This document shows, piece by piece, positions 11,970-64,000 of a DNA stretch of 64,000 nt. The stretch is from Rhizophagus irregularis (taxonomy: Eukaryota): the NCBI RefSeq assembly GCF_026210795.1, contig NC_089436.1:1488001-1552000 (forward strand). The letters are read 5' to 3'. Numbering within the stretch: position 1 is the first letter of the stretch; each line of letters opens with the position of its first letter. The notes beneath the pieces were generated by a model that made no database searches, was not told where the DNA came from, and saw only the letters and a program-made list of their open reading frames with translations. The position numbers were made by a program, and so were the translations under genes.

Positions 11970-13687
11970 GCAAGTTTGATTACAATGGTAAAGAAAAAAA
12001 AATAAAAGTCGCAATAGCAAACTACATTCCCATGCAATATATCTCATTTCCTCTGAAATTTTTTTTGCTACACGTACGATATTCTTTTTTTTTGGCAGAT
12101 TTCGTGTAATCATGATAGACATCATCATTATGTCTGAAAATTCTCTGAAATAATGTAATTAGAAAAGCCTCATTAAATCTGTGTAACAATAAGTAATAAT
12201 ACATACTTCTATCAATAGCATCATCTTGTAAATATCCGCTAACTTTACCCAGTCGTCCTCAAATTTCTGAGGCACCTCTAGCTCGAAAATTTTTTCGGCA
12301 AGACATTTATCTTTATCGGCCAAGCATACTCGCCAGGATTCACTTTGATTTTCTAGTTTATTGTTTGAAAGTCAGCACCAAATGTTTATTTTTGAAGGCA
12401 ATACAATTCTAAAAACTAAACTATGTACTATATATGTTAATACGATATATTTCCTAGATATTTCTGCATCCCCTTGTCTGTTAGTCCAGAATCTCTTACA
12501 AAGAGTATCAACCGCGTTACGAAATGATCTCTGAAATTTTTCAAGATACGACTTGTTAGAAAGTAATTTAGCTTTTTTAAAGAATCTAATCTCTTAACAT
12601 ACCTGTGATATTTTGGAGGTTTTGTTTTTCCTGGCGAGCACACATTCTCAAACACCAATCTTTCGATCTTGCTATTATTATCAAAAAGTATCCCATCGCA
12701 TTTTCGACCGGTCTTCTTATTAGATTTGTATACGTTTCGTCTTCATTTTGACGATGGGTATATCATTTCGCACCACGAACTTATGAATAGGCTAGGTTCT
12801 TTGTTTTTCAATACTTCAAAATCCGGAGCAATCCACGTAGCAATTTCACCGTATAAATACATGATTTATTATAAACAACGGGTAGAACCTCTCGTCAAAT
12901 TCATCGTCAGTTTTGTCATAGTCGTTTTCGTCTCCTACATCATCTTCTATTAAGCTAGACATAAGATGGATAGTTAATAAATAAATAATCGTATTGATTT
13001 ATACTACCACTGACCTTTCGACATTATCACAATTTGAATATTTTTCCAGTGGACTAGTTTCACGGCGTCTTCTCTTGCTTTCACGGGCAAGATCATCTAC
13101 CCATTTTTGTCCGATGATAGTGTCAAACTCCATAACTCTTTTTTCTGCATTTGCCCTATGCTGAGAGTTAAAAAATATATCATAAATAAACACGGAACCA
13201 CTCCAAAATTTCTCAAAGTTATGCAATATTTAAATATATTTATACCTCTGCAGAATGTTCAGTAAGCTTACTCCAGTATTGATGACAATCTTCAGATGTT
13301 TTGCATACTGCCTCATTTCCTTTTCTAATTTAATAGGCCTTCGACCACATCTTTAAGAGCTTGTTCTGCTTGGATTCGTTGGTCGTGCTTGAATTTAAGC
13401 TCTTCAAAAAATAACATTGCGACTTCCGGACTTTTCATTGATGGAAATCAAACCTTCTGTATTTAATTTTTTTCTTTTATAATTTCCACGAGTAGACGAT
13501 TGCGTAAAGTCTTCGGATCTGGGTTTCCCCTCTTTCTAAGAATTGGGTTTCGCCCCATTCTTTAGGATTAAAAACTAAAACACGAAAAAATAAGATCACG
13601 CGTAAATCTATAAACACGTGCAAATTACCCAATTCTGATCGTTTCCTCAGAAAAAAAAATTGATATGTCTGTATTACAGTCGGTACC

Positions 13688-16600
13688 GCAAATATATCGT
13701 TTTTGATTAAGGAGGTGATGCTTTTTGATTATAGAAGTTAGTTGTACAAACTGTTGTATCGTTTTTGATTATTGAAAAAATAAATGTATCATTTTTGATT
13801 ATTGAAAAAAAAATTCTATCGTTTTTGATTATTGAAAAAAAATGTATCATTTTTGATTATTCGATAGTATCACATGGTCACATGCATAGATTCGACATAC
13901 TGTACATATCGGAGACTTTATTCACTAAATAATTTCAAATTACTAAACTTATTAATCGTTATTTTTGTTTCCTTACTATTTACTGTTTCTTGTATATTTT
14001 TATTAAGCCATTTAAAACAAAGAATTGCCAACATTCATATGTCATAAATTTAATCCTTATTTTCTCAAAATTTGTCTTTATTACAACTAAAAGACAATAG
14101 TATTAATCAATCATCTATTTCATTGCTATGCATATAAACTCCAAATTCAATACTATCATTTAAAATTTCTTTCGCATCTTCAAGTGTTATACTATTATTA
14201 CGGTCCTCTTGAATCAGACGTAATGTTACTTCTGGTACTAGAACTTCGTAAATAAAATCCATAGGGTCTAATGGGTACGTTTTGTCTTTTGTGAGATTAT
14301 TAGAGTTAACAAACAATTCTATTAAAGTATTAACAATAGTATATAACCCATTAAACCCATAATAACCTGGCTGTAAATTAGTAAAGCTAATTAATAAAAT
14401 ATAAACAAAATTTATATTCAAACAGATAATTACCAACCTGAAAAACTTCAAATCGATTCATGAGCATCATTGGCGCCTTGGCTTTATTATATCCGACTTC
14501 TTTATATATTGAAGATGCAATATCCCAATAGTAACTTGAAATATTTCCGTTAATAATTTCAATGAGATCTTTTTCAAATTTGATTATGCGTGATGGAAGT
14601 ACATTAAAATCGATATATTCAGGATATCCTTTTGATAATCCATGTGGAACAATATTCAATTCACCATGATGCATTATACAAAAAGACCAACGTTCTTCTT
14701 CTGTGATTGGCTTGTTTTGTAGATTTTGTAACTGGTCTTTTATCTTTTCTGGTAAAATATCTGGTAGGATATTATCACAATAGGGGCATAAATTGTGAGA
14801 ATTAGGTACTAAATCAAATTCTAAATCCAAGTTTAAATCATCATTAGATGGCAGTTCTGGAAGATATTGAAATACATTGCGGGGTGGGCTTGGCATTATA
14901 AACGATGATGATGATGCAAATGAAGATGTACTTCTTCTATCTATTAAATAAATATAGGTAAAGAAATTAATAATACAGATATTAATGTTATTACGTTAAA
15001 TATATATCTTTACCAGTACTAATTGAAGATAAATTATCTTCTCGTTTTCGTTTAAGATTTCGAATTTGTTTTGTTTTCCTTTGTTGTATAGAAAACGTAT
15101 TACCAGATTGTGATTGGTTTGGTAAATTTATTCTATGGGACGATCGAGGTTTAGCAGATAATTTAGGAGGTGCGCCTAAATTTGATTTTGTTCTTTCACT
15201 TAATTCTGCTGGCCGAAATGGATCTTTAATCTCCTGAGATGACCGTTTAAGTGGATAAAATATTTTATTACCTAATGAGCAAAAGTAAGATTAATATAAT
15301 AAATAACAATAATAATTTTTAAAAAATTATTTCAAACATCTTACCTTGCATATTATATAATCTAATAATTTCTTGATAAGAATCTTCCATGTCACCTTGA
15401 TATATTACATTATTTTTTATAGACGCGGGAACTACTCGTTCCTTATTACGAAAATAGAGAACAAGATTTTTCTTTGCTTCGTTTACAACTTCTAGATGTC
15501 CTTTTTGTTGTGTTTCTATAAGCAAAGTGGCTGCATGACAGTGCCTACATTTATCACGTAATGAACTATTCCATATGTATTCCCAGCATGTACATTCACC
15601 AGTAATAACATTACATATATGAAATCCTTGTTCTAATATTACATTTTCGGATAATAAAGATTTCATAAGAAAATTGATCATATCATTTAATTTTCGTACA
15701 ATTTCCTCATCTAGACGCAAAGGCTTATCATCATAAGAAGATACGAATAAATCATCAGATTTTTTTTTAACAAGAAAAGTATTTTGGTCTGATGATATCT
15801 TAACCATATTAAGAAGAAAATCTAATCTTCCTTGATTTAATCTTCGAAGTTTATCACAACATATCATATCATCTTTAGTTTGCTATAAATAATTTAAAAT
15901 AAATTAATTTAATAATATTATTTAAAAATGATAACGAAAAAATTCTTACCTGTTCAATCGTTTGAGTATTGAATAAAGTAACTAAACCAGATTCAAACTT
16001 ATTTAAATCTTCATGACTTACAATAGTTTCACTTTGAAATTTTATTCCATACATTCGTTCAACAAATGTCAATGGTGTTTGTTTACCACTATATACTGCT
16101 TCAATTGTCCTATTGATCCGTTCTGTAAAATTGTTCGTAGTCCATGGAAATCTGTTTGTAATGTTTTTGGAAATACGACCAGCATCAATAAAACTTAATT
16201 TCCACTCCGTGCACATCCAATTTTTAGATAAATCATCTATTAATTTATCTTTTTTAGTTTTTTCCAATGGAAGAGTGTTAATAAATTCGATATATTTCTT
16301 AGCCATTTCAATGGCAGTTTCTTCAGTTCGACTACGACCTACAATTTTAAACGCTAATGCTATTGGATATCTAAACAATAAATAATTAATTAGTTATCAA
16401 TTTTAATAAAAAAAAATTAATATAATATATAACTTACCTGAATTTTGCAGGTATCTGCCATTTATTTAAATTTTCACTAAAAGTTTTCATAATATGAAAC
16501 CAACATAAAATTGGTTTATGTGAAGCATTTTGGATAGCAAGTTTAGATGGTCTATGCTTATCAATTAAGATATATGGCTTCCAATTATTGTTTTCGACAT

Positions 16601-18363
16601 TCACGAACTCGTTGAAATCCGTTTCCAGATAAAAGATTTTCATAGTACCACTTGTGTTCACAGAACTCGTTATCACATGGGATATTTTTTTTAATAGCGT
16701 CAATAGCCAATTTTATAGTATGATGATTTTCCTTATTAAATAGCGCTAATATATATATTTTATTTACAATTTAATAAATTACAATAAATTATATACTAAA
16801 TAATTTAATATATGTCAAATTTTACTTACCAAATGCAACAGGCAATCCGCAACCAGCACTATTCTCAGTAACAATTGATAATACCGGTGCACGGTCCAAA
16901 TTTAAATCATATTTACCATCTATTCCGATACAGATTTTACCGTAATCACGAGCATTTTTTAACCAAAACTCATCAGAAATTGTAAGTTGATAATATCGGT
17001 CAGGTGAATCAGCTGGTTGATTAATGTCTGCTATTTGATAATATAATATAAAACCTTGAGATTTTAATATATTATTTACTAAACTATCAAGCTGAGTCCG
17101 AGGACCAGTATCATCCTTTAATTTCTTATCATCTCTGGCAACAAATTGCCGGAGTTTGTCATTATTACATATTATACGTTGGCTTGCTAATGCATTGTTA
17201 ATTACTTCTTCTGATGCACCATTAAGTGATGTTAATAATTTCGCTTTTATCCCTTTGGCTGTCCTGTGGTCTGCTCTTCTGCTTAATGCTATCGAATCTC
17301 TGACAGAATAAGTTAAATTTATTCTTGAAATTTTAGGAATATTATTATTGTAAAATGTACGATGAGTTCCTTGAATGGTAATTCGCAATGGATTTTCTAA
17401 TGATAGCCAAGATAACCGACATTCAGAAATAACTCGACACTACAATGGTGCATATCATTTCCATTTTTCAAATTATTTCGTAAATTATAATTTTCACAAT
17501 TTTCATTACATTTTCCAACACTACCGCATAATCTTTGACAGTTGCCTCCATCACCTGAACAATACATAACCCAATACCAACATTGTTGGTTTTTGGCTAA
17601 TCCTAATTCAATTTGAGAAACCAGATCTCTTCCTAAACTGGTTAAAACTAAAACATCATCAATACGATTTGTTGATTTTACCGTTCCAGTTTTAGTTTTC
17701 CATGCTAAGTAATCTATTGCCCCTTGTACACGTTCTACCGTTAAGATTCCAGCTTTAACAAGTTTAGGAGTAACTTGTCTACTTTGATTTTTTAAGCGAT
17801 AATTTTTTAAAAGATTTGCATTTGATATATACCATTCTGCAGCACGACCAAATGGTACATTTACTGAGCCATCATCGTTGTATTTGATTTGATTTTCGTA
17901 AGTTTCCATATTATAATATATAGTAACGTTACACAAATTTATAGAAAGAAAATTATTACAAATAATTATCACGTAAAAAATATAAACAAGGTTATAAAAC
18001 GCAAAATATATTATAAAAACTATTATATAATAAAGAAAAAAATATCAAAAGAGAAATCAAAATTTTTGGAAAAGAAAAAGAATTGAACCATTTGTCGTGT
18101 GAAAAGTATTATGTGAACGCGTTAAATGTTATACAATGATACATTAACTTGTTAAGTATAAATTAAATAAATAAAACGTGATACTATCGAATAATCAAAA
18201 ATGATACATTTTTTTTCAATAATCAAAAATGATAGAATTTTTTTTTCAATAATCAAAAATGATACATTTATTTTTTCAATAATCAAAAACGATACAACAG
18301 TTTGTACAACTAACTTCTATAATCAAAAAGCATCACCTCCTTAATCAAAAACGATATATTTGC
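13688..18363 (-). mobile_element. Full-length Mutator-like (MULE) DNA transposon, 4676 bp
   Basis: Near-perfect ~186-bp TIRs (13688-13873 / 18178-18363) with internal tttttgatta repeats. Exact 9-bp TSD gtcggtacc at 13679-13687 and 18364-18372. Internal MULE transposase. Confidence 0.93.
14107..17909 (-). CDS. Multi-exon MULE transposase with SWIM finger, spliced to a C-terminal RTC4-like domain; one apparent frameshift near 17436
   Basis: DDE-type motifs IGIDGKYDL, ILIDKH, LCWFHIM, TTNNFTERIN. SWIM CTCWEY...CRHCH. Downstream exons join in frame to CPYCD...FCIMHHGELNIVPHGLSKGYPEYIDF...QPGYYG. Confidence 0.8.
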
Positions 18364-18989
18364 GTCGGTACCGATATTCTATGTACCGATATAAATTGCC
18401 TGTACCGATAAATTTTTGTTGTCCCATTTCACAATTAATAAAAAAACCTCGTTGTACCGATATTATATATAATTTCGCGATGTATAGTAAGGTATACCGA
18501 TATTTTAGGTTACACTGATTTAATTCAGGTCGGCACTATAAACTTGGCCTGAATTAACAAGAGGATTTCCATCATTCCATCCAAGTAATTAGATTTTTTA
18601 GATCTTGTTTCAACACAAAATGTGAACAACTTTTGTTTCATGAAATGTATGTTAATGAGAAGCTATAATTTAATCTTTAAATAAACTCGAGAGTTTGCAT
18701 AATGCCTTCAAGAATTAGACTTTGGCCTACATTATGATTCACTATGTAATGATAATTTGATGTAACGATATATTTTACCCAAACCAACAGCATCGGTATA
18801 TTGAGGTCTGACTGTATACATGTTATTTTTGATGCAAGGTTCATTGATAATCGAACACAAAATTTATATTGAGAATGTATATACATATAAAACAAGTACA
18901 CATGTTTAAAAATTGGAAGTAAAATCTTTATTATATTTTTTTGTAATGTAATATATGAGAAAGGGCTGGCTGGAGGAATGTAACAATAG

Positions 18990-19575
18990 AAATATATGAT
19001 GCTATCAAAAAGGGAAGGAGTTCTCAGATCCTAAGTCATAAATGAGAATCCCAGCATCAAGTTATTTTGTAATATTACCTCTACTAATACTTCCTCTAAT
19101 GCTACTGCTACTGCTACTGTTATTACTACTGCTACTATCAGAAAAATTAACTGATTTCTTATTTCACTTCTTTTCAACCCATTTGATGATTTTATCTATA
19201 GAAGTTCTTTTTGGCGATTTTTAATGAACTAGCTAATTTACTAGCATTAAGACCAATTTCAATTGATAAAATGTTGTACATTTGTGTTGGAGAACAACTT
19301 TCCTTTTCCTTCTATTATTAAAAAGGGCTGTAAATTTGACCTAATATGTTTCATATTCATCTGTATATATGGAAATCGGAATATTGACTTATGTAAATGT
19401 GACTTATGGAAGAGAATTAATTAGATTCTACTAGAAAAAAATAAGGCGTAGTAAAGCACAGATAAGTATATTTGCATGATGTGATAATTTTTTCTTCCTC
19501 TGTATGACCTACTTTGAGATATCATATCATTTTTCCATTTAGCTTCTGTACACATTCTTAGACTGTTCTTTTAAG
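18990..19575 (-). pseudogene. Decayed copy of the gene region at ~45795-46400
   Basis: Collinear with 45795-46400 (tgatgctatcaaa..., cccagcatcaagttattt...), with most CpGs converted to TpG/CpA and small deletions. Confidence 0.85.
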
Positions 19576-20094
19576 ATTATTATCTTGTATTCACATTAAA
19601 TTGACTATAGTAAATTTCTTAGATGAAAAGACATAGTTATTGAAATTGTATTAAAAGGCTTTTCTAGTAAAAGTGTCAGCCTTTGATAAATTCTTTGCAC
19701 TATATATTATGCTAGCAAATACTAATCCTATTCTACACAAATCACTAGAAAATAGTGGTTTATCAGGTTTAGAAAGAAATTCCTCCTTTTTTTTAGAAAT
19801 CTACTTGGAGTTCCAGTAATTACTAAACTGAACTGATCAGTTTTCAGTTTTCAGTATTAGTTTTATCATTTTTCAAACAGTCTGACTTTTTATTTTATGA
19901 TTGGCCAACTGATAATCTTTTTTAGTCTATATATATATACAGTTTTATTTTTTAATATAGTTTTGTAATAAACATTGAAGTGTAGTAAATTTCAGTAAAT
20001 TAGTATTAGTAATTGGTAATTACCAGCCGGTTTAATTATACAGTTTACTAATATCAAAAATTTGGTAAATTACCAATCACTAGTGTTTTGCATA

Positions 20095-20705
20095 AATCAA
20101 ATCAAATTGAATTTAGTTAAATTCAGATTTGATTTGATTTGATTTGATTTAATTTAAATTTGATTTGAATATTCAGTGATTTGATTTGATCTGATTTAAA
20201 TTTGATTCAAATTTGATTTGAATAATTCAAATTAATTTGATTTGATTTGTGATTTGATTTGATTTAATTTGATTCAATCCAAATTTGATTTAAATATAAA
20301 TTGGATAATTCAAATTAATTTGATTTGATTTAGTAATTTGATTCAAATTTGATTCAAATTTGATTAAAGCTCTATATAAGCCAGTTTACGAGCCAAAAGT
20401 ACTTCAAGGCTCACAAGCTAACTCACAAGCTAATATACTTTTAAAGTACTTTTGGTTTACAAGCTAGCTTATATAGAGCTTTAGATTTGATTTAGATTCA
20501 ATTTGATTTAATTTGATTTAATTCAATTTGAATTTAATTTGATTTGATTTGATTTGATTTGATTTGATCAAATCAAATTACTTTGAAATTTGATTCAAAT
20601 TTGATTCAAATTTGAATTTAAAATTCAGATTTAATTTATGAATCAAAAATATCAAATCAAATTGAATTAAATCCAAATCGAATTTGAATCAACTTGATTT
20701 GTCCA
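20095..20705. repeat. Degenerate (GATTT/AAATC)n low-complexity array, probably the interior of a non-autonomous element
   Basis: Dozens of gattt / ttgattcaaa units in both orientations around a short unique core (20370-20480). Confidence 0.75.
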
Positions 20706-21855: not shown

Positions 21856-23028
21856 ATGACTGATCACATAGAAGATTCACCCATTAAAATGAAAAATAGA
21901 GGAGGTCGGCCACCTAATAGCATTTGGGAAGATATTAATAAAGGAGAAGCTGTTGGTTCTGGCAAATTTGCCGCCTCCTGCAAGTACTGTAAGAATACAT
22001 GGTCACGCGGTGAAGTTTCAAAGCTCAAAGAGCATCTTTCAAACCATTGTCCAGATGCGCCAGCAGCAGTTGTTAGAAGGTATATGACTAAAGTAATGGA
22101 ACGGCAAGATAAGTCCAAGTCATCCAAAAAAAGAAAATACTCTGAAGGTCAAAGTAACATGGATGATTACCATGATTCAACAGAGCTTAACGAACAAAGA
22201 TGTACACGAATTAATCGTGCATTAGTTAAATTTTTTATTGCGTGCGGAATTGCGTTTAGAGTAGTGGAACATCTCTTTTTCATCAATTTTATAAAAGAGC
22301 TTAATGCCGGGTACAATACACCAACAACGGAAGTATTAGTAAATCAACTACTTGAACGTGAATTAGCTCAAGTGAACTTCAAAGTTAATTCTGAGCTTGA
22401 AAAGGAAACGAATTTAACGTTAGGTTTGTTAAATTAAATAGGCTATCATACGTCATTTTTATTTAATTGTCCGGAGCGAAGCGAAGGACTATATATGTTT
22501 ACGCACTATGATGATCTATGGAAATAACGTGTAAATTTTCAATCACGTGAGTTTCTCTGTCCAGGAATTCCAAGGCGTTATGCTGCTAATCAGCAGAAAA
22601 TTACCAGAATTCCAAGGCGTTATGCTGCTAATTAATAGAATATCGCTACATCTTTATTATTATACCTCGCTCCAGACTTACAACGGTTCCCATTTCCTAG
22701 TCTTACTTACTATATAATATTAATTTATAATTTAGCCTTTGATGGTTGGACGTCTGGTACACATCGTTCAATTTGGAACTTCATTGTAATGACTCCGTCG
22801 CGTAAAGAATATCTTTATCAACTTTCTGATTTGTCTGAAAATTCGCACACTGCAGAATATCTAGTTACGGTAATTGAAAAGGTTATAGAAGGTATTGGAG
22901 AAGATCGAATATGTGCTGTAGTTTCCGATAATGCGGCCAATGTTCGTAATGCACGAAAAATTATACATGAGAATCATCCAAAGATTGAGAATGTGCGATG
23001 CGTTGCACATTCTATCAATTTAATTGCA
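21856..23028 (+). pseudogene. hAT transposase with BED zinc finger, 3'-truncated
   Basis: BED finger IWEDI...CKYC...LKEHLSNHC. ACGIAFRVVE; spliced LTLAFDGWTS (first catalytic D); VVSDNAAN (second D); CVAHSINLIA (CxxH). The sequence then switches abruptly to a palindrome. Confidence 0.88.
22469..22700 (+). mobile_element. Small non-autonomous Helitron/Helentron-like insert inside the hAT intron
   Basis: Subterminal inverted repeat gtccggagcgaag (22469) / cctcgctccagac (~22665). Internal 26-bp direct repeat gaattccaaggcgttatgctgctaat. Ends in ctag|t. Confidence 0.45.
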
Positions 23029-23030
23029 TG

Positions 23031-23080
23031 AGCCATTTATGACTAAATAATATAATTATATTATTTAGTCATAAACGGCT
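23031..23080. repeat. 50-bp spacerless palindrome
   Basis: agccatttatgactaaataatataa|ttatattatttagtcataaacggct is self-complementary with one mismatched pair; centre at 23055/23056. Confidence 0.95.
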
Positions 23081-23087
23081 TAGACTA

Positions 23088-23260
23088 GATTATTTAGTAA
23101 TAAAATAATCTAAGTATGACTATAAATAATCTAAATATAACTAAATAATCTAAATATAACTAATTAATCTAAATACAGTATATCTAAATAAATTAAATAT
23201 ATCTAAATAATCTAAAGTTAATAACCTAAATATGATTAAATAATCTAACTAAATAACCTG
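23088..23260. repeat. Degenerate tandem array of (c)taaataatc units next to the palindrome
   Basis: Repeated taaataatctaaatat(a/g)ac variants; the same ctaaataat core forms the palindrome arms. Confidence 0.8.
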
Positions 23261-24385
23261 TTTGTGACAATTTTCTGTACCTAGTTATTTTTCTTACTAT
23301 ATTCCTTCCCTTTGAATTCGCTTTTCTTTAGCTTTTTTCATTTATTATTTGTGATCATGTGATTAAATAACCTAAATATTACTATTACTAAATAATCGAA
23401 ATGTACCTATTTTTATTTAATCCTATACACGAATAATCAGCTTCCAATATAATTTATGATATTGGGATTCTACGGTTGATTGGTTGTTAAACTTTATGTT
23501 GAAGGTCTGGCTTGTCTGCAATTGTTTGGATCCCAAGTTTTATGATGAAGTTTCTGCCATTCTGTACCTCTTTGGTTACCTGTTAAGGATTCGAGGGTGC
23601 TTTCCTTCTTCACCTATTTTGTTATCCATCAAAATGCCAAAATATGGTAAAAAATATCGTGTCAGGTGGCGCAGTAGATCTGCGATTAATTTCGGCCAGC
23701 ACTATACCATAATTTCAGCCGATCTTTTGGGCATGTGATTCGAGGATCCAGCTTGGCACCATGATGGTGACTTGATAGTGTCCTGGAACTTCTGTGGAGC
23801 TGTCATGGAACTGGCAGGGAGCTAGAAAGGTTCTATTATTTTGCCAGTTTTAGGCCAGCTTGGGTGCTGAGTTATTATGTTCAAAGATCTGGCCGAAATT
23901 GTGGAATAGTACTGGCTGAAATTATGGAGCGAATTTTGACTGCGCCTACTGCGCCATGGTCACGTGATCCTGTTACGGCACCGAACACCCTTTCATAGTT
24001 GCGGGCTAGTAACGGGAATGTTCTGGGAATGTTTCCGGAACCCAATGTATATGCATTTGTGCAAAAAAAAAAATGTCTAAACAAGTACAAATCATAAATC
24101 CTGAAACTGGACAACAAATCACACTAGATGGCTTACACAATATTGCCGGCTAAGTTTAATTCTACTTTCGTCTACCTATTTGTCTCCAAGAGTGAGGCCG
24201 GAGGTATTATGCTTCTGAGGTTTTCGAGGTATATCGGCGGGATGTTGTAAGCACTTCCGAGGCCCAATCATAGTTTATTCTGGGTCGAAGCAGTGTGTAT
24301 GCCGATTTTTGAGCGTCCCTAGTGTCCCTAGTAAAAGTAAAGTTATAGGAAAAAAAAAATATCGAATCCATCCTGTATGTATGCC

Positions 24386-24830
24386 GTCACCAAGAAAATT
24401 TGTTAGTGACTCTCTTAGTGACGCTCTTAGTGACACCCTTGTATGCCTTTTTCGGTGTTTGGGGACGCTCGGTTCTCTTCTTTTATATTTGTCACTAAGT
24501 CACTAAGAGTCACTAAGAAAAAGTAAAGTTCTAGGAAAAAAAATCGAATTTTTTCTATGCTACTCCTATGGCTTATATGCGATATAGTATGATACATATA
24601 TGACATATGCGTGATACATATATGCTAAAAAAAAAATGAAAAAAAGTTATGGAACTCGGATTTTTCTTAGTGACTCTTAGTGTCATAGTGACACCTATCT
24701 AGAAACCTTCTGATGGCTCTAAAAATGTGAAATAGCTATAAATTTTGTCACCGAGAGCGTTACCAAGAGTGTCACCAAGAAATTCTACAATTTATTGTAG
24801 GTTCGTCCAAAAGGCCATAGGGATAGTGAC
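24386..24830. repeat. Non-coding cluster of TTAGTGAC/GTCACYAA motifs in alternating orientation (candidate origin or binding-site array)
   Basis: About 14 copies, e.g. 24386, 24403, 24415, 24427, 24491, 24499, 24509, 24667, 24686, 24746, 24771, 24824. Also a duplicated aaaagtaaagttmtaggaaaaaaa block and an AT-rich centre. Confidence 0.75.
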
Positions 24831-24846
24831 AACTTCTTATTCTTGT

Positions 24847-25170
24847 TTAAGTTCTCTCGATTAGCCTAAAATTACTTGAGCGGAATCTCTTTGGGACCAT
24901 CAGCTTGCTTAGCCAGCTTTTTTCGATGGTAATGTTCCTTCGATCTATGTTTTTTGCATGCGTATCGCAATAGTCATATTTGGATCTTGTCGGGTCACCA
25001 CATTCTTTGCAAAGAACTTGCCTAGAATTCCGATGGACTTTACATCCCTTTGGATCAAAGCATCTCCGATTACATACTTCTCCAGTTCTAAGAATATATG
25101 GACAATAATAAAAATTCCAGGATGGTGGTTCTCTTTTGAGAACTCGTGTCTCCTTTTTTTCGCCTTCCAT
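24847..25170 (-). CDS. Small Cys/His-rich putative zinc-binding protein
   Basis: CPYILRTGEVCNRRCFDPKGCKVH and CKECGDPTRSKYDYCDTH. Intronless, divergent from PolB. Confidence 0.6.
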   Translation of the reverse strand: MEGEKKETRVLKREPPSWNFYYCPYILRTGEVCNRRCFDPKGCKVHRNSRQVLCKECGDPTRSKYDYCDTHAKNIDRRNITIEKSWLSKLMVPKRFRSSNFRLIERT

Positions 25171-25367
25171 TTATATATATCAATTAATAATCTTGGGGAA
25201 TTATTTTCATTTTGAACTTTTTTCTTGCGAATAATATACCCTGAGTTTTGGTATAGCTATAAATTATCTTAATTTGCTTGAGAAAAAAAAATGACCCAAT
25301 CCGACTTCTTCGAAGACGCCCCCGCCCTTTTTCACCCAGAGGCTGAAAAAGAAAAAACATCATCAAA

Positions 25368-28300
25368 ATGGAGTGGTCGGGTAATCAGATATGGGGTGAA
25401 AGTTACTTGGCGGGTATCTCAGCCCGTGATAAATTAGCTATGAGAAATGACGAGAGTTCGACTTTAACTCTCAAAGTTGAGATAGCGAATCATCGAGATA
25501 TTCCATTCGTGTCATACGACATAGAAGAAGCTAAAGAGTATATTAATAAAATCCCCCATTATGTTCTTCGAATCTATGGACATCTCATTAATGGTCAGAA
25601 GGCAGTCGTAACTATCACTGGTATTAAGGTTTTCTTCGATATTCGCGTTCCCGAAAATTCGAGTATTCCTAAATTCTGGTCCAAAATTAAGGGTATACTT
25701 ACTACTGGAAAAGACAACCAGGGGAATAGAGTAGACATGAATCTGATCCGAAGGGAGTGCATAAAGGCATACCCTATTCGTGGCTACCATGCGGAAAAAA
25801 AGTCATATCTTCGCATCATTGCACCTAATAAAGATATAAGGTTCACTGCTCTCGATATCATTTCAAACTATAATTCGGAGGCTGATCCCGAATGTAAAAT
25901 AGAGACAGCTTCTGATGATACAGGTACATATTATCGTAAAGTTGCGAGAGAGTATAGGATACCACTTTCCGGATGGGGGTTAATAAGAGACTACAAATAT
26001 AATTTCGGAGCACCATATTATGCTCGTTCCCACCTTTGTCCACATGCGTTTTATGTCCATATCAAAAACTTCCGCCCCATAGACGATTTCGGACTACTTT
26101 ACGGAATCTATCTATCTTTTCTATTTACTCGTGACCGAGCATTAGTTCTAACATGGGACATAGAAACATACGATTCACGTGGATTAGGCAACTTCCCAGA
26201 AGCGAAAAATGACACGTCCCAGGTTTTTACGATCTGTATGACCCTACACTGGAAGGACGACTCAAAGCCACTAGAACAGATATGCCTTGTTGATGTTGAG
26301 ACGGCACCAAATCCGCGCTGGACAACCATCATATGTGGGAACTAAGTCAATTTATTAAAAGCTTTCGCTTTATGCTGGAAATCTTTTGCTCCAGACATCC
26401 AGCTCGGTTTTAATGACTCTGGTTATGATTGGCCATTTATAGTGGAGAAGGCCACTAAGTTAGAAGTCCTCGGATGGATGATTCAGCAAATCTCTGCGAA
26501 CCCACATAAGAAAGCTAATGCTCAATCTATTCTCACTTGGAATTATTTCAGTGGAACTGGAAAGCCACTAACTAATGGTTTCTTCCAAAAGAGCCAGTGG
26601 GTAAAGAAAACGGACAGGAGTCCCAAAAAAATATTAGGCCGAGATTCCATTAATATCAAAATCCATCCAACTTTAGACTTCGAATCCTCCTTTCTTAAAC
26701 TTCCCGGGTGTGTGCCGATTGATGTTCGTGCAAGTTTTATGCAACTCCACCCTCACTCTGAAAAAACATCACTTAAATTCTTCTTAGAAAAATGTGGTCT
26801 CGATGGCAAAGCTGATATGCCCATGAGCAAATTATGGGAGTATTATTCGGAAGCAAGGAATGGGACTTCCGACTCTTCCGTCAAAAATATGCATGAAATC
26901 GTAAATTATTGTGTTATAGATGCTTTACGTTGTCAGGAGCTCATGGTTAAAAATAATGTCATAAATGATTATAGAGAAGTTGCCTCGATCGCCCACATAT
27001 CATTATTTGACACACATTATTATGCCATAGGAATGAAAGTAGGTAATCTCTTGGGCGCTGAAGCGTGGGCGGAGGACATTCTATTCAGCATGAAAACTTC
27101 TGATCAGAAAGCATCTGGGAAGTTTCCGGGAGCATATGTATTCCCACCTGAGAAAGGTCTTGAAAATAAGCGACCGGTCACGGGTTTGGACTTCGCTTCC
27201 TTGTACCCTAGCATAATTATGACTTATAACCTCTCATCCGAGAAGATGGTCTCAACACTTTTGGAGGCCGATGAGTTAGGGAGAGAGAATAAAGTGCTCC
27301 ACAATATCAAGTTCAAGTATAATGGTAATCCTATACGAGCCTGGACTATACGGCATGGGAATAAGCCTGATCAGAAAGGTCTTTTCCCAAAGATATTGGA
27401 GAGATTGGGGAGAATGCGAAATGAAATAAAAGCCCAGCTAAAGCCCATTGGAAAGAAAAAGGAATATATGGGAAAGGTCAAAAGTAGAATGGATGCCAGC
27501 GGATCTATCTCAATAGCGGACGCATTCAAAGATGTTTTGTCCTCGACGAAGAATATGAAGAAGCGTGCTGAGATGGTTAAAATCTTAGATCCTTTTATTG
27601 ATTTATCGTATGATAATTTTATAAAAGAATACAGTTCTGTCTGCTTTGCCTATGAATCTTTAAATTCTAAGCAGAAAGCCATTAAATTGTATATGAATTC
27701 ATTCTATGGTGTGACGGGTAGAAGTGGCTCCCCATTCTACATACTCGAACTTGCTGGAGGTGTTACTTCGGCTGGGCAAGAAATTATCAAACGTGTCACA
27801 GAGTACGTTAGAAAGAAAGGCTTTGGGATAAAATACGGTGATACCGATTCCTTATATCTCACTTGTCCAGATTCCTATTTTGAGAAATACGATCTGGCTT
27901 ATAATGATGGGAAGGGAGAAATCTCTAAACTAGAGTATTGGACCGAGATGGTCAAGACTACTATGGGTGTAATAGAAAAATTGCGCAATGATGTGAACAC
28001 TTTCCTCAGGCTCAAGACTAGATCGGATTATCTTAAAATGGCCTACGAGGAAGTACTATTTCCAGTAGCGTTTACCAGAAAGAAAAAATATTTTGGCATT
28101 GACCATGAAGAGACCCCCAACTTCGAACCAAGAGAGCCTTTTATAAGGGGAATAGATACTGTGAAGCAGGGTAAATCCCAAGTTTTCAAAACTATAGGGG
28201 ATCGTATTATGCGAAGGGCTATGGATATTAATAACGTCCAATCACTCCATGAGATTGTTGAAGACATTCTCAGGGATGCTATAATTAATCATGAGCAGTG

Positions 28301-29285
28301 GAATTTTGAACAATTTATAGAGACTGACGCTTGGAAACCCGATAAAGATAACAAAGCTGTTCAGCGTTTTATAGGAAGAATGAGAGGAAAGTATGATAGT
28401 AAAATTCCGATACCAGGTGAGCGCTTTAGTTATGTAGTAACCCATCCCGATACTACCTTCGATTTACATGGTAGAAAGTTAAAACCAACTAAAGGCGAAA
28501 AAATGGAATTCGCCGATGTAGCTAAGGAATTGGGGAAGGAATTAGATTTATACCATTATTTCGAAAAAACTATTATTGGCCTCTGTGCCCGATTTATCAT
28601 GTATGATAAGAAGTATGAGCCAGAACCCTCAAGTCGAATCATGCGAATCGAAGACCCGGATGAGAAATATAAGCAAATTGATGACTATGCTCAAAACAAG
28701 GCCAAGTCATGGCTTGAGGGATTCGTAAAAGAAAATATCATAGTCAATGGTGTTACTTCCAAGATGATGGAATCTCGTGGGATTGCTTATAAGCGTGCTT
28801 ACAGAACTGCGGTCAAAAAGGCACAAGAAATGTTGTATCAAAAGATAGGGTACTTATACGAAATATTTCATGGCGAATGGCTTAGCTACGAGATTTTCAT
28901 GATAAGTAACCCTATCGAGGTATTATGGGAGAAATTTATGAAATGCGCTAGGAAAATTTCAAAAGATAAAAACCTCTCGGTAGATGACGAAATGAAGGAA
29001 AAAATATGCTCTGATTTTGCTCGATATCCTAGCGAGCTTGCAAAGTGTATTGAAGAGTATAATTTATTCTTTCACAAATTGGTCTATCATATGCGTTACA
29101 AAGAGCATGTGTCAATTCCAGAAGAAATCAGACCAGTTGCATCCATGCGAAAAAATGAGATAATTGCTGACCTACCTTCCTTACCTCACATATCAGAAAT
29201 TGGGGTACTAGATGAGATTAGTAATTTATGGTATTTCCATCTTGAGGATGTGACCGAGCCGGAGGCAGTAAAGCAAAGCACTTAA
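25368..29285 (+). pseudogene. polB: Family B DNA polymerase with 3'-5' exonuclease, large-DNA-virus (asfarvirus-like) type; one internal stop
   Basis: ExoI LTWDIETY, Exo[13 protein letters not shown], ExoIII YCVIDA, motif A DFASLYPS, motif [15 protein letters not shown], motif C YGDTDS, KKKY. The two ORFs are in one frame, separated only by TAA at 26343-26345 (32 open codons then join 26442). About 1305 codons, no introns. Confidence 0.93.
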
Positions 29286-31927: not shown

Positions 31928-32809
31928 TCACTTTTTTTTTAATACATCATCATCCTCACTTAAATCCTGCAAAATACAGTCCGGAGTCGAGGATTCATCA
32001 CATTTGGAAGTAGTGGTCGCACAATTCACCTCGAGCTTATTCTTGACCTTATGCATATTAATTGGGATAAAAAATTCCTTACCATTACACTCTAGTCTCA
32101 ATTCCCGCTTTGATGCAAGTAAATCATAATTATATTTATCAAGAAGCGTGTTGGGTAAGATTAGCATCGGCTTAGGGTATTTGACTACAGCAAAATCAGC
32201 ATATATAGTACATCCGGGAGCGAAATTTACTGGGACATTTCTGACAATTCCAAGGGATTCTGTGGGAGTAGTAGCAATGCCTCTGAGATCATGTTTTTCT
32301 TTTGTATCAATTTCTAGCTTTGATCGTTTAGAGATATCATCTGTCATAATCAGAAAATTAGCACCAGGATCAACTATGGCACCCGGAATGACTAGATGCT
32401 TGATTTTGCACTTAGTAGTAACAACATCTGTGGCGGGATCTTTTTTCTGAACGAAATCGATTTCCATAGGCTCATTTAGAATTTCGTCTTCCCCACCTGA
32501 GTCTGGAGTTTCAGGAGTATCCGAAGTGGAGTCATCTTTACCATCAATCAGTATTCTGGAAGCAGAATTCTGCGATTGAAAAAAGGCTATGATGTCGCCA
32601 AACTTTTCATTAAGCACCTTCTCAATAATTTTCTCAATAATATTTTCCAAGCGGGATTGATTATCCTGTGACAGGGATTCTGAACTTCGCTTTTTCTTTT
32701 TAGAGAAAAAAGCTGTCTCTATATCTGTTACCTCTTGAGACTTAGCCGTAAGGCGACTCTTTGATTTCTTTTTTAGTGAAGAGGAAGGATTACTCGATTC
32801 TTTCTTCAC
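31928..32809 (-). CDS. Retropepsin-like aspartic protease, in the -1 frame relative to Gag
   Basis: AIVDPGANFLIMT (D-x-G active-site motif with P at x), LRGIAT flap-like segment, DFAVV...MLIL pattern. Overlaps the Gag stop at AAAAAAAAAGTGA. Confidence 0.8.
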   Translation of the reverse strand: MKKESSNPSSSLKKKSKSRLTAKSQEVTDIETAFFSKKKKRSSESLSQDNQSRLENIIEKIIEKVLNEKFGDIIAFFQSQNSASRILIDGKDDSTSDTPETPDSGGEDEILNEPMEIDFVQKKDPATDVVTTKCKIKHLVIPGAIVDPGANFLIMTDDISKRSKLEIDTKEKHDLRGIATTPTESLGIVRNVPVNFAPGCTIYADFAVVKYPKPMLILPNTLLDKYNYDLLASKRELRLECNGKEFFIPINMHKVKNKLEVNCATTTSKCDESSTPDCILQDLSEDDDVLKKK

Positions 32810-35037: not shown

Positions 35038-36714
35038 TTGAGAATGAGTCAACCGCAAATTGTGATAGATCCCGATGAAGAGCTCCGTATAGTCTGTAGA
35101 CTTCTATTTTATAATATACCCGGTTTTCATCCCAATGCAAAAAAATTACATAAAGCATGTCAGGAGGAAGGATATTCTTTTCGATTACAGGATATCGCAA
35201 AATGGGTAAAATACCAATATAGCTACCAAATCTATCAACAGCCATTGCCATGCAAAGCTGAGGCGAGTTTCTCAAAAATCAAAATTCCAAATAAGGTGCA
35301 CCAGTGTGATATTTTGCTCCATACTCATGATGACCAGGATGGAAGAAGGGTATTCGTTTGTAGTTTTCTAGTCATAGATGTGGCAACACGTTTTAAGGCT
35401 GGACGTTCATTAACATCAAGAAATAGTTTGAAAATCTGGAATGCGGTCGAAGAAATATATGAGGACCCCTCTAATCCTCTTACATGGCCAGGATTATTGA
35501 TGACTGATGGTGATGCTTCGTTCCGAGGTGCATTTTTACGAGGGATGGAACAGCATAATGTTCCAATACGTGTTGTCGACCTTTATAGTTTCGAGAGCCT
35601 GGCTTTGATCAAAGCATTCAAGAAAAATCTAGCAAAATTAATATATAAGGTCCAATATGCTATAGAGGGGCGATTGGCCGAAGGAGAACGATCAAGACTA
35701 TGGAATAAAATTCTTGAGAAATACATTGATTTTATGAACAATAGCAAGACTCGCCTTATCGGAATGTCACCAGCTCATGCTATGACTTTGGAAGAGGTCG
35801 AATCGAAACCTTCTAGTAAAGCTAAACGGGCAATTAGGAGACACGAAGAGATAAAGTTAAAAAAGGGTACAGCGGTTAGATATCTATTGAAACCGGGTGA
35901 GCTGGAAGGTGATCACAGGCATCGAGCAACTGATCCGTACTGGTCATTACGTGTATACAAGATCAAAAGAGTTGTTGTCGGAAGGAATCCACCACAACCA
36001 GTCTTATATTATCTCGAGAATGAGCCCATTGAATCCACTGCTCACTTGATAGGACGGAACCCCAAGTGACCCTTCAAATATGAGGAACTTCAAGTGATTG
36101 AAGAATCTGATAAAATCGAGTATCCACCAGATGAATTTATGCAAAAATACCACCTTACTGGATTCATCCATTATGTTAATGCTTCCAGTAGTAAGTCAGT
36201 TCAGGCCGTGGATTATGCCATGAAGCGTGATGGGCAATGCCTTAGAAAGACCGGGCAAATAAATGGTCATGATGTGTATCTTTGGTCTTGCAAGAATGGT
36301 GCACACCAGTGGGAGTATCCACTAAAATATATTATGAAAAAATTCGAATGGTGTCCTCTTTGCCATCATAGAAGCGGTGAACGCCAATGCCGATATATTT
36401 TTGAGGATCTACTAGGCAAGAAATTTCCATCATGTAGGCCGAATTTTTTGCATGGAATGCAACTTGATGGATATAACGAAGAGTTGCAACTAGGATTCGA
36501 ATTTCATGGCAAGCAACACTATAGTCTTAATTCAATGTTTCATAGAAGAGGCCAGATAGATTTGGATGAACAGAGAATACGCGATCAGAAGAAGCAGGAT
36601 ACTTGCAAGGAGCAAGGTATATGTCTTATCGAAGTGCCTTATACTGCGGATCTTTTTCCATACATTAAGCATACACTAATCGAGAAAGGATTCTTGAGTA
36701 ATTCTTCAAGTTAG
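35038..36714 (+). pseudogene. Polinton/Maverick-type DDE (rve) integrase fused to a Zn-ribbon and PD-(D/E)XK-like nuclease; one internal stop
   Basis: [68 protein letters not shown] at 36067-36069 is the only break before ORF 36094. C-terminal [15 protein letters not shown] and [21 protein letters not shown]. Confidence 0.85.
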
Positions 36715-36782: not shown

Positions 36783-37544
36783 ATGAAAATAAAGAAACTT
36801 GAGCCAGTTGAAAGGTTTGTATACCATATCGATGAGATTAAAGATGCCAAAAAATATAATGGACACTCAAGTGTTCCCCAATGGCCTTTCACCCTTGGAA
36901 TCTTTGGCCGTACTAATACGGGAAAAACTAATGAGGTTATTAATCTCACGCTCAGAACTAAGCCTTATCGAATGTCTAAAGGAAAGAAAGGAGGGACACG
37001 TTATATCAAGTGTGATGATTTGCTACTCATCGGTCACAATCTTAATGAGAAAAAATATATGATCCTTAAAACAGTGTATCAGACAATTGCTAATAATCCA
37101 AAGCCATATCGTGAAAATATTTCATTCCGAGCTTTGAAGCCTGATAAAATTCCCAAGATAGATTCATTTTCTCCGGACAGGGCTACGTTAGCTATATTCG
37201 AAGATCTATGCGCTGATCCAAAGGAAGTGCAGAAGAAAATTATTCCTTATTTCATTGAAGGGCGCCATTACAATGTCAGTTCGATATATGTATCCCAGAG
37301 TTACTTTGATTGCCCGAAGATAATACGAAAAAATCTCTCACACATCTGCCTATTTAACGGCTCCTGCACTACGGACGAGCTTAGCAGAATCGTGTGTCAA
37401 TATGCTAATGACTGGCGCAGTGTAATTAAGATTATTGATAAGGCATTATGTGAGAAAGAATTCATTGTTTTCGATCTAACTGTACCTCGAGAGCATCCAC
37501 ATAGGATACGTATTGGCTGGGATGTACCTCTCACTAATGAGTAG
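36783..37544 (+). CDS. A32-like (FtsK/HerA superfamily) genome-packaging ATPase
   Basis: Walker A GRTNTGKT, Walker [24 protein letters not shown] (arginine finger plus conserved Q), PKIIRKN. 253 aa, intact. Confidence 0.88.
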
Positions 37545-45589: not shown

Positions 45590-45862
45590 TTTCTTAATAA
45601 CAAAGAAGATCATTTATTTTACTTTGCTATTCTATATTAAAGCGGGATTTTCATATCTGTAAATAGCTATGTTAGTTTAGTAAATTTTGTATTTTTTCGT
45701 TAGTATGTAATATGGCCGATCCGTTAAGTAAAAAATGAATAAAAAAAAAGTAGAATAATAGATCGAAAGACCAGAAGAAAGTAATGATTGAAATAAATGA
45801 TGCTATCAAAGAGGGAGGGAGTTCTCGGATCCTAAGCCATAAATGAGAGTCCCAGCATCAAG

Positions 45863-61575: not shown

Positions 61576-62720
61576 TTAGTTTTCATCAAAGATCTTGATT
61601 GCCTTCGCCTGATCATAAGGTTGTCCTCTTTTTCGATAATTCACTATTGTATAGTTTTTTGCTGGGGAGGCATGGTTATCTGGCGAATGTCTTAATCCTT
61701 CACTGGCAATAGTCATAGCTTCTGATAAATTCTTTGCACCATGAGATACAACTGCAAATACTGCCTCTAATTTACGCAAAGAACTAGGAAGTAGTGGTTT
61801 GCCGGTTTCAGGAAGGAACTCATCTTTTTTCAGAAATGTATTGAACTACAACACTCCGGGCTTTCCAGGGTCTCATAACTGTCCAGAAGAAATCGCATCC
61901 TGAATCCATACAAGCAATTCTCTAGCTCGCTCCTCGTTCTTCTCTAGTGATCTAAATACTCGAGGAATGTCTTGTTGTCCTCGATTTTTTGCATATCCAG
62001 TTACACCTCCATTAGATATACGCAAGGTTTTTATTTCAGCAGGACGGATGCAGAGCATTATCGTTACATCGGCAAGGGCTTGTAAGCCAGGGGCTCTGGA
62101 TACATCATATATATCCAATCTCTCCTTAACTGATTCTAACGAGAAGTGGTCCGGAAAATCGATCCCTTCATCTTCACATTGTTTACTACGCTCCTTTTGG
62201 ATTTTATTAGCTGAGCGGGTTATGTCTGGAATCAATGTAGCTGAGATAATTTTTTCTGAGGCTTTGAGGTTTCGCAACTCTCTTCGAAGCCTAGAGATTC
62301 GTGATAAGCCAGCGCTAGCATTAGAAGCAGATTCAGCTAAGGCTTTTGCTATACTTTAACTTCTACTTCACTAAGATTATCCCGAATGATACGCTGGGCC
62401 AAATCTCTAATAGTCTCTTTCGGTGAAATTTGACATGTATTCACTGTGTCCGGTTCTACTTCTTGGGTGATATCGGGAGTATCAGGAGCATTGGGTAAGG
62501 CTCCTCCTTTTTTCCGACCAGCTGTTAGCTTAGGAATTAATGTAAATACCTGTTCTTCGCTAAAGTTGTATCCTTTTTTGAGACGTCGTCGTGCCTGATC
62601 CCTCTTAACTTTGTCCGTTAAAAGAATATCCAACGCCGGTGCGTGCTTACTTAGCTCTTCGATACTCATCTCGGTATTGAGCTCGTTTTCTGTTATATAT
62701 CTAGTAGCGATGCCAGCCAT
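61576..62720 (-). pseudogene. Tyrosine recombinase, protelomerase/telomere-resolvase-like; one frameshift and two stops
   Basis: Reconstructed order LCIRPAEI (R), VTGYAKNR (K), SSLRKL.AVFA (R), LRH (H), SPAKNY (Y). Frameshift near 62355, TGA at 61873-61875, TAG at 61846-61848. Confidence 0.65.
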
Positions 62721-63134
62721 GTTATTATTTGGTAATATGTAAGATATTTGGTTATACCTAGGTTGTTTGGTATATACTATGCGGAGAAAGTTCAATTCGA
62801 AAAAAAATAAATAATTCTCCCTATCTAAGGACTGCGGGAGAGGGTCGGAGGGGTTTCGGATGAACAAAAAAAGAATATTATAACTTCTGCGGGCTCTCTA
62901 TGAGGCCACGAACTCCAGCCGGAATAGCTTTTATATATATTTGAAAATTGCGGGTAGATAGGATATGCGAAAAAATAATAATAATTTGGGATTTTATATC
63001 GCCTAATTGTAAAGAACGAAAGTCCCATCCCTACTAATATTTCATAACCCACTCTTATTCGCTCTTTACCAAAGCATACCATTCTCTGCGCTTGCGCTGA
63101 ATATGCTTATATTTTTTGCCACTATTGGTCAAAC

Positions 63135-64000
63135 CTACCATAAGTAACCGTTCTCTTGGAGTATGCTAATACCTTTTTGCCACTCCTCATCATCATAAAC
63201 ATATGTCCGGGGCTTTCCCACATTCTCGAAGTTGCGGAGATATATTTCTTCACTTATTAATCTTTCCCTTCTAGACATCCAAAATATATCGTTTACGTCC
63301 ATACCGTCTGCTTTCGCAAAATCGACGGCATCTGCGTCCGACATCATCCTGTCTCGATATTCATGGAATAGTCTGATATCTTTTTCTGTGATGGTCACGA
63401 ATACGTCTGGGTCTTCACCATGATCGATAGCCCATTTCCTGAGGCGCTCTTCTCGCTCTTGTCTAGCCGGGGATGTGGAAGAAGCTTTTTTATTGCTAGG
63501 TTCGGGTTTATCTATTAGTGACTCAGGTGATTCGGAAGTCTTAGTACTCTCGGATGTCCCAGATGTTGAGGCGATTGGGGGTTCAGCTTTCTTATCTCTT
63601 GGAAGGAGATTCTCTTCTGGCTGGGGCGGGATTATTTTTGGAGGAATTATTTCTGGCATATTGAATATGGGTATGTCTGTGGCCTCGTTTGTGGGTAAGT
63701 CAGGTTGAGGTATGTCAGAAAATTCTTCGATATCACCTAAGCCAGATTCACGGAGCTTAGCTATGATCTTGGAGCGGTCAAGAATGTATTGCCATTCTCT
63801 TTTCCCACCACCTGTTTGCACTTGTTTGCTTTCAATACCAATTTCAGAAAACTTTTTTCCAGCAACTTTACTAGTCAATAGTTTTTCACCATTCTCTCCA
63901 CACCATTCAAGATACTTTTGATATAATGATGTACGACTTTGCGTGGATGTTCCACCCTCAGCCCTAGATGTAATATAGTCAATTATAAATCGAATGGGAC
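63135..64000 (-). CDS. C-terminal part of a D5-like primase/SF3 helicase (5' part outside window)
   Basis: Frame is open to the window edge: PIRFIIDY...RTSLYQKYLEWCGENGEK..TSKVAGKKFSEIGI...GGKREWQY, the pattern of the D5 C-terminal winged helix. Walker motifs are not visible in the window. Confidence 0.65.
   Translation of the reverse strand, partial: PIRFIIDYITSRAEGGTSTQSRTSLYQKYLEWCGENGEKLLTSKVAGKKFSEIGIESKQVQTGGGKREWQYILDRSKIIAKLRESGLGDIEEFSDIPQPDLPTNEATDIPIFNMPEIIPPKIIPPQPEENLLPRDKKAEPPIASTSGTSESTKTSESPESLIDKPEPSNKKASSTSPARQEREERLRKWAIDHGEDPDVFVTITEKDIRLFHEYRDRMMSDADAVDFAKADGMDVNDIFWMSRRERLISEEIYLRNFENVGKPRTYVYDDEEWQKGISILQENGYLW

What the first reader, a model, noticed from the sequence alone, without database searches (positions are those of the whole stretch)
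23029..23260. 50-bp spacerless palindrome plus tandem repeats exactly at the element's apparent left junction
Seen: the hAT transposase stops at ...HSINLIA and within a few bases a 50-bp palindrome begins (one mismatch, at a CpG-decay position), followed by taaataatc repeats. Known: protelomerase targets are spacerless palindromes of this size range, and pox/asfarvirus ends are AT-rich hairpins next to tandem repeats. Inference: an opened hairpin telomere or resolvase site belonging to the element.
Basis: partly seen in the sequence, partly recalled or inferred. Interest (0 to 1): 0.8.

Follow-up and report, generated by a model that had tools for sequence, protein, structure and literature searches.

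The report
Palindromic end of giant fungal element
A 50-base palindrome and its short repeats form the exact outer end of a mobile, virus-like DNA element of over 40 kb in a mycorrhizal fungus, and the palindrome is likely the site that the element's own telomere-resolvase-like enzyme would cut and seal into a hairpin end.

Summary
A spacerless 50-bp palindrome (23031-23080, axis 23055/56, one CpG-type mismatch) starts at the base where a multi-copy hAT gene is cut off. Two metagenome loci carry the same palindrome, perfect, starting at the same base behind unrelated flanks. It is therefore an element end. One of those loci stays collinear up to the start codon that opens PolB here, but there it opens a primase-helicase. 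This suggests ~2-kb terminal inverted repeats, with PolB at one end and primase-helicase plus a tyrosine recombinase at the other, in a ~45-kb Glomeromycota element. The recombinase lies near PolB in 4 of 6 loci of another assembly. It resembles telomere resolvases by language-model features, one motif and one weak fold match. Profile tests were not significant and a second model gave no support. Best reading (0.5): a hairpin-telomere site of a linear replicon that integrates through an rve integrase. The far end, a target-site duplication and hairpin molecules were not seen. An independent MITE is unlikely.

The parts
21856..23030 (+). Host hAT transposase gene, 5' part (zf-BED exon, intron, DUF659 exon), cut off at 23030; the insertion target
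   Evidence: Pfam; intact copies continue in frame in 4 of 4 runs
23031..23080 (.). 50-bp spacerless palindrome, the outer end of the element; axis 23055/23056; begins AG, ends CT; one mismatch at 23035
   Evidence: perfect and starting at the same base in L001 and L002
23039..23402 (.). Array of a ~19-bp unit in both orientations, including the two palindrome arms; likely protein-binding sites
23031..25335 (+). Inferred terminal inverted repeat (~2.3 kb) reaching into the first codons of PolB; the inner boundary is approximate
   Evidence: L001 collinear in blocks up to the ATG at 25291; PolB and primase-helicase relatives share their first ~15 residues
24847..25170 (-). Small Cys-rich ORF inside the inferred repeat, partly conserved in L001
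25291..29285 (+). Family B DNA polymerase (PF00136, PF03104), frameshifted near the start and split into two ORFs (25368-26345, 26442-29285)
   Evidence: 97% identical to a protein named Rhizophagus irregularis
35038..36069 (+). rve-type (DDE) integrase, the candidate integrating enzyme; linkage in other copies not tested
   Evidence: ESM Atlas 0.97, 22 of 30 hits rve; Pfam rve E 0.21 only
36783..37544 (+). A32-like packaging ATPase
   Evidence: PF04665, E 6.5e-7
61576..62759 (-). Tyrosine-recombinase-family gene resembling telomere resolvases; broken here by one frameshift and two stops
63135..64000 (-). 3' part of a D5-like primase-helicase gene (relatives carry DUF5906); runs off the window

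Best explanation
The palindrome is the outer end of a large PolB-bearing mobile element, and it is likely the telomere site of a linear, hairpin-capped replicon that the element's resolvase-like enzyme would cut and seal. Shown: the end position, its conservation, and the link to the element's replication genes. Inferred from two loci and from protein starts: both ends carry a ~2-kb inverted repeat, one opening into PolB and the other into primase-helicase followed by the recombinase (element ~45 kb; right end predicted near 67.9-68.3 kb, outside the window). Inferred and untested: (1) the recombinase binds the converging 19-bp units, cuts at the axis and closes hairpins, freeing a linear episome and resolving its replication dimers; (2) PolB with the primase-helicase copies it, and hairpins solve the end problem of a polymerase that lacks protein priming; (3) a nick 25 nt from the hairpin tip opens the end to the 25+25-bp palindrome with AG/CT termini, and the rve integrase joins that end to host DNA. 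This copy is decayed: PolB and the recombinase are broken.
For: End: the same first base lies behind three unrelated flanks. L001 and L002 are 455/458 identical inside the element and differ outside it. The palindrome is 49/50 identical to theirs against 287/334 for the DNA behind it (P about 0.005). Both-ends reading: the L001 ORF at the position of the PolB start matches the N-terminus of primase-helicase P0272 (79% over 38 aa). PolB and primase starts share ~15 residues in two species (P0126/P0272, P0155/P0161). One element: 4 of 6 recombinase loci in one R. clarus assembly lie 9-17 accession numbers from a PolB (random placement: 5 of 300,000). Enzyme: R, K, R, H and Y are conserved (101/116, 110/111, 108/121, 111/117, 114/115). 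ESM Atlas: 19 of 30 hits are PF16684 ResT/TelK at 0.95; phage integrase is 0.93 at rank 19. A G-x-A/L-K-x-R/K/H motif after R-x-x-E occurs in 26/29 protelomerases, 0/10 integrases, 63/120 family members and 4/120 PolBs. Model 1 ranks TelA above Cre-type proteins (Foldseek probability 0.57 against 0.35; VIA rank 1, Z 6.2, rmsd 4.5, 154 aligned). The annotated telRL sites of N15 and phiKO2 are spacerless palindromes of 56 and 50 bp. The junction lies 25 bp outside the axis, so integration did not cross over at the axis.
Against: No significant profile match to protelomerases: hhalign probability 0.5% (E 0.11) and 1.1% (E 0.049), against 0.5% for the integrase control. No PF16684 hit in 5 of 5 family members scanned. 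A four-block score does not separate the family from ordinary integrases (median 21.9 against 20.3). Both models are poor (pLDDT 60 and 56). Model 2 ranks Tre 14th and TelA 34th. The model-1 Z of 6.2 is tied with unrelated helical rows. Atlas shared-feature counts (161, 157) lie under the 170 typical of family members. The motif was chosen after looking. L001 and L002 are one lineage, so there are only two independent sequence types. P0161 joins a primase-type start to PolB, so L001 could be a variant left end. Five of the 20 PolB accessions were picked for matching contig length, and accession order stands in for gene order. In phages the site lies next to the resolvase gene; here it does not. 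The far end, target duplication and hairpin molecules were not seen.
Confidence: 0.5

Rival explanations
1. The palindrome and repeats are an attachment/binding end for an ordinary integrating tyrosine recombinase or for the rve integrase, as in Polinton-like virus end modules. No hairpin is ever made.
For: Two converging 13-bp half units around an 8-bp core, with further units beside them, resemble loxP/FRT-type sites (recalled). The order inverted repeat, primase-helicase, recombinase is the PLV end module, where the repeats are proposed as recombinase substrate and origin (PMC11296320, section 8). The protelomerase assignment is not significant.
Against: The whole palindrome is kept and the junction is 25 bp outside its core in 3 of 3 loci, whereas recombinase integration would split the site at the core (established mechanism, recalled). 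The core is symmetric. The position three residues before the second arginine is S, R or K, and never the histidine of integrases (0 of 119).
Confidence: 0.28
2. The end is a self-priming hairpin for PolB that is opened by a nicking step (parvovirus- or poxvirus-like terminal resolution); the recombinase has another target.
For: The PolB is not of the protein-primed family. The palindrome folds strongly. A fixed 25-bp outer arm is what a site-specific nick would leave.
Against: A primase-helicase is present, so self-priming is not needed. No Rep/HUH or Holliday-junction resolvase was among the Pfam hits of 41 ORFs. The other copies have no flip/flop mismatches.
Confidence: 0.14
3. The palindrome and repeats are an independent MITE or foldback element, or a product of hairpin repair at the hAT break, and sit beside PolB by chance.
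For: The region is present as many diverged contigs in 4 of 4 runs. The window holds other AT-rich foldback repeats (20082-20700). hAT enzymes make hairpins on flanking DNA (recalled).
Against: The same palindrome occurs with no hAT beside it in L001 and L002. L001 stays collinear for 1.9 kb into a replication gene. No second end or matching inverted copy lies in the window.
Confidence: 0.06

Closest known systems
Polinton-like viruses with a primase-helicase/tyrosine-recombinase end module (CBEV_PLV1, AHEV_PLV2; PMC11296320, section 8 and passages read)
   Same: Order inverted repeat, primase-helicase, recombinase; replication genes next to the repeats. The paper notes abundant primase-helicase homologs in R. 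irregularis and floats recombinase action on hairpin ends for a poxvirus.
   Different: Here the polymerase is PF00136 type, the element is over 41 kb, and no capsid gene was detected. A 50-bp terminal palindrome or a resolvase-type enzyme is not described in the parts read.
Polinton/Maverick elements (definition from PMC10748475, passages)
   Same: PolB, rve integrase, A32 ATPase, inferred long TIRs; AG/CT termini (recalled from the Polinton literature).
   Different: PolB is not protein-primed; size exceeds 13-25 kb; extra primase-helicase and recombinase; TSD not seen.
Asfarvirus-related PolB loci of R. irregularis ('fundsbetavirus', PMC7017919 section 4; PMC10640383 passages; PMC5294986 passages)
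   Same: Probably the same loci: 15-33 polB copies per genome at strain-variable positions. The window's PolB is 97% identical to an R. irregularis protein. Its asfar-like placement was not tested here.
   Different: Those papers, in the parts read, treat them as relics of repeated virus infection and give no ends, repeats or mobility mechanism.
Protelomerase/telRL systems of phages N15 and phiKO2, Borrelia ResT, Agrobacterium TelA; phaeovirus telomere resolvase (PMC13236599, passages)
   Same: Spacerless palindrome of about 50 bp; recombinase-family catalytic residues and a similar lysine motif; linear hairpin replicon as the proposed state.
   Different: In those phages and in the phaeovirus the site is internal and single. 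Here it sits at the integrated end, 25 bp from host DNA, away from the enzyme gene. Sequence similarity is below significance.

Membership tests
Protelomerase (PF16684) | Catalytic R-K-R-H-Y set of the tyrosine recombinase clan | tested here: met
   Conserved in 87-99% of aligned relatives; in register with TelN R/H in the best hhalign segment
Protelomerase (PF16684) | Profile match to the family | tested here: not met
   No PF16684 hit in 5 of 5 members; hhalign probability 0.5-1.1%. The Atlas feature match of 0.95 is a lead
Protelomerase (PF16684) | Fold | tested here: inconclusive
   Model 1: TelA best among recombinases, Z 6.2, rmsd 4.5, 154 aligned. Model 2: no support. Both models have low confidence
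Protelomerase (PF16684) | Spacerless palindromic target on the same replicon | tested here: met
   same-element linkage. That it is the target is inferred
Protelomerase (PF16684) | Converts the target to covalently closed hairpins | not testable with these tools
   Needs a biochemical assay or fold-back long reads
Polinton/Maverick | Protein-primed PolB | tested here: not met
   PF00136 and PF03104, no protein-primed family hit
Polinton/Maverick | rve integrase and A32 ATPase | tested here: met
   linkage to PolB in other copies not tested
Polinton/Maverick | TIRs of 100-1,500 bp | tested here: inconclusive
   A ~2-kb TIR is inferred from L001 and from protein starts; both ends of one copy were not seen
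Polinton/Maverick | 5-8-bp target site duplication | not testable with these tools
   The far end is outside the window and no genome is held; the hAT continuation is absent from the window
Polinton/Maverick or PLV | Major capsid protein | tested here: inconclusive
   No capsid family among the Pfam hits of 41 ORFs; no fold-level test of the unnamed ORFs
PLV end module | Inverted repeat, then primase-helicase, then tyrosine recombinase | tested here: met
   Primase-helicase then recombinase in the window; repeat then primase start in L001; pieced together from two loci
MITE | Short non-coding unit with two TIRs, independent of larger elements | tested here: not met
   No second end in the window; collinear into a coding gene in L001. 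No genome-wide count was possible
Poxvirus/asfarvirus hairpin termini | Incompletely paired flip/flop loops | tested here: not met
   Perfect 25-bp arms in L001 and L002. The feature is recalled, plus a reference title seen

The most novel reading that the evidence does not exclude
Arbuscular mycorrhizal fungi carry a family of ~45-kb, apparently capsid-less elements that alternate between an integrated form and a hairpin-capped linear nuclear replicon. A highly diverged eukaryotic protelomerase frees and resolves them at a terminal 50-bp palindrome, an NCLDV-type PolB with a primase-helicase copies them, and a DDE integrase reinserts opened hairpin ends. Excision would leave solo palindromes or transient hairpin chromosome breaks.
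Probability: 0.35. Interest if true: 0.9.

Novelty: new variant of a known kind. Interest (0 to 1): 0.72.

Why it matters
It gives an exact, searchable end to the multi-copy virus-like PolB loci of mycorrhizal fungi, which the papers read here treat as infection relics. That turns them into a definable mobile family whose copies, insertion sites and cargo can be counted. If the hairpin model holds, it is a protelomerase-driven transposon or plasmid in a eukaryotic nucleus, with a new resolvase family (462 relatives found) and a possible vector or source of chromosome breaks in fungi that cannot yet be stably transformed (recalled).

Tried and rejected
No whole genome is held. Palindrome or terminal patterns found nothing in viral contigs or prokaryote genomes. 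PolB and the recombinase found no confirmed relative in viral contigs. The hAT continuation is not in the window. A closer read-level look at left flanks and fold-back joints was not obtained, so flank evidence rests on three loci. Contigs cannot show ends or hairpins, and their depth is no copy number. The deep profile search for distant recombinase relatives never ran (queue full, 9 tries). PDB sequence searches, PHROGs and BFVD fold search gave nothing significant. I first read the L001 ORF as a PolB start and corrected it to primase-helicase type. Two cluster members (P0277, P0278) were dropped from the linkage count because they lack the recombinase domain; they also lie 12 and 17 accessions from a PolB. 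Ten Gigaspora and Diversispora proteins shared no contig, which is uninformative. GC does not mark the junction: hAT 0.363, element 0.369, upstream 0.281. A weak match between the terminal repeats and the recombinase promoter (E 8e-4) was not reproduced by the unit matrix. Five look-ups of earlier findings gave nothing relevant.

Full report
Observation. The window is AT-rich fungal DNA. Its PolB is 97% identical to a protein named Rhizophagus irregularis, so the host is likely that species or a close relative. The palindrome is at 23031-23080, with 25-bp arms, no spacer and one mismatch. It scores 21, against 12 for the next site and at most 12 in 20 shuffles. A ~19-bp unit follows. A matrix built from L001 alone puts all 9 strong window hits in 23039-23402 and shows that the palindrome arms are two converging copies of the unit around an 8-bp symmetric core.

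The junction. The gene on the left is a hAT transposase. In 4 of 4 laid runs, contigs of intact copies match to 23030 and then continue in frame with other sequence. That continuation is not in the window. The break is therefore exactly at the first base of the palindrome.

It is an element end. One exact-pattern scan of the metagenome collection gave 2 loci. Both hold the palindrome in perfect form. In both, similarity to the window starts at its first base behind unrelated DNA. L001 and L002 are 455/458 identical inside and unrelated outside, so they are near-identical copies at different sites. Against the window, the palindrome is 49/50 identical and the next ~340 bp are 287/334 identical (P about 0.005). 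The caveat is that this gives three sites but only two sequence lineages.

Which element. L001 stays collinear in blocks for 1.9 kb, up to the ATG that starts PolB in the window. I first took its ORF for PolB. The match is in fact to a primase-type N-terminus: 79% over 38 aa to the primase-helicase P0272, and 70% to the first 57 aa of P0161, whose PolB core starts only near residue 150. PolB and primase-helicase relatives share their first ~15 residues in two species. The simplest reading is a ~2-kb terminal inverted repeat that opens into PolB at one end and into primase-helicase at the other. In the window the primase-helicase points inward from the right edge, followed by the recombinase, which predicts a right end near 67.9-68.3 kb if there are no introns or insertions. 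The alternative is that L001 is a variant left end with a primase-PolB fusion like P0161. Between the ends lie an rve-type integrase, an A32 ATPase and cargo. In one R. clarus assembly, 4 of 6 loci with a confirmed recombinase domain lie 9-17 accession numbers from a PolB; random placement gave 5 of 300,000. Five of the 20 PolB entries were picked for matching contig length, and accession order is assumed to follow gene order.

The recombinase. The gene at 61576-62759 is broken here. It has 462 relatives among 1258 candidates; those with species names among the best 120 are Glomeromycota. R226, K251, R322, H351 and Y363 (P0002 numbering) are conserved. For a telomere resolvase: 19 of 30 Atlas hits are PF16684 at 0.95; TelA is the best recombinase match of model 1; a lysine motif is found in 26/29 protelomerases, 0/10 integrases and 63/120 family members (chosen after looking); no member has the integrase histidine three residues before R322 (0 of 119). 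Against: no Pfam hit; hhalign probability 0.5-1.1%, while protelomerases against integrases score 95%; a block score no higher than that of ordinary integrases; nothing from model 2; both models have low confidence. It looks like a resolvase, but membership is not established.

Mechanism. Shown: a fixed end, a conserved palindrome and linkage to replication genes. Inferred: a polymerase without protein priming, plus a primase, leaves a linear replicon with an end problem that hairpins and a resolvase solve, as in N15 and phiKO2, whose annotated sites are 56- and 50-bp spacerless palindromes. The junction lies 25 bp outside the axis in 3 of 3 loci. That excludes integration by crossover at the axis. 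It fits a hairpin nicked 25 nt from its tip and joined by the DDE integrase. I give this 0.5, a plain binding or attachment end 0.28, self-priming with another nicking step 0.14, and an independent MITE or repair scar 0.06. That the palindrome is the element's end I put near 0.9.

Comparison. The nearest described layout is the PLV end module (PMC11296320; section 8 and passages). Polintons differ in polymerase type and size (PMC10748475; passages). The multi-copy asfar-like polB loci of R. irregularis are known (PMC10640383 passages; PMC7017919 section 4 and passages; PMC5294986 passages), with no ends described in what I read. Phaeoviruses use an internal telRL-like site (PMC13236599; passages). 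Passages of PMC13465315, PMC5751038, PMC13533422 and PMC4409740 added nothing on this element. Ten full-text searches showed no listing that describes these ends or a resolvase in these fungi. The library lacks most subscription papers, and no supplements were read.

Verdict. The feature is real and is the terminus of a large virus-like mobile element. It is a new variant of Polinton-like elements, with a fair chance of a hairpin-telomere cycle that I found no description of for a fungal nuclear element. Interest 0.72.

Noticed in passing
window 22467-22700: A 234-bp insertion in the hAT intron. It is skipped by contigs in 4 of 4 runs and has high depth and varied flanks, so it is a separate small mobile element.
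   Followed up: partly
window 13680-18374: An element with 187-nt inverted repeats, 99% complementary, around broken ORFs; one has a SWIM-like Cys/His motif (label recalled), perhaps a MULE.
   Followed up: no
window 20082-20700: A foldback-like array of GATTT repeats with a central 43-nt inverted repeat.
   Followed up: no
window 18973-19803: A decayed piece of a related element: 83% like 45774-46356, plus a fragment of the recombinase C-terminus at 19600-19791.
   Followed up: partly
window 31928-34991 (-): A gag-like, zinc-knuckle and aspartyl-protease-like block with no reverse transcriptase among the Pfam hits. A relative's gene model (P0272) also ends in a Retrotrans_gag hit, so such a block may travel with the family.
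   Followed up: no
window 38464, 49034, 49667, 57074: Four copies of a GC-rich, partly palindromic ~28-bp motif inside the element, with internal duplications 47578-47950/55749-56065 and 49577-49812/56988-57215.
   Followed up: no
window 51123-51508: An 82-bp tandem repeat, 4.7 copies, 94% matches.
   Followed up: no
window 59472-60482 (-): An F-box/LRR gene inside the element, probably host-derived cargo.
   Followed up: no
L002 1-1679: The element copy interrupts a gene with a P-loop-like motif on the minus strand.
   Followed up: no
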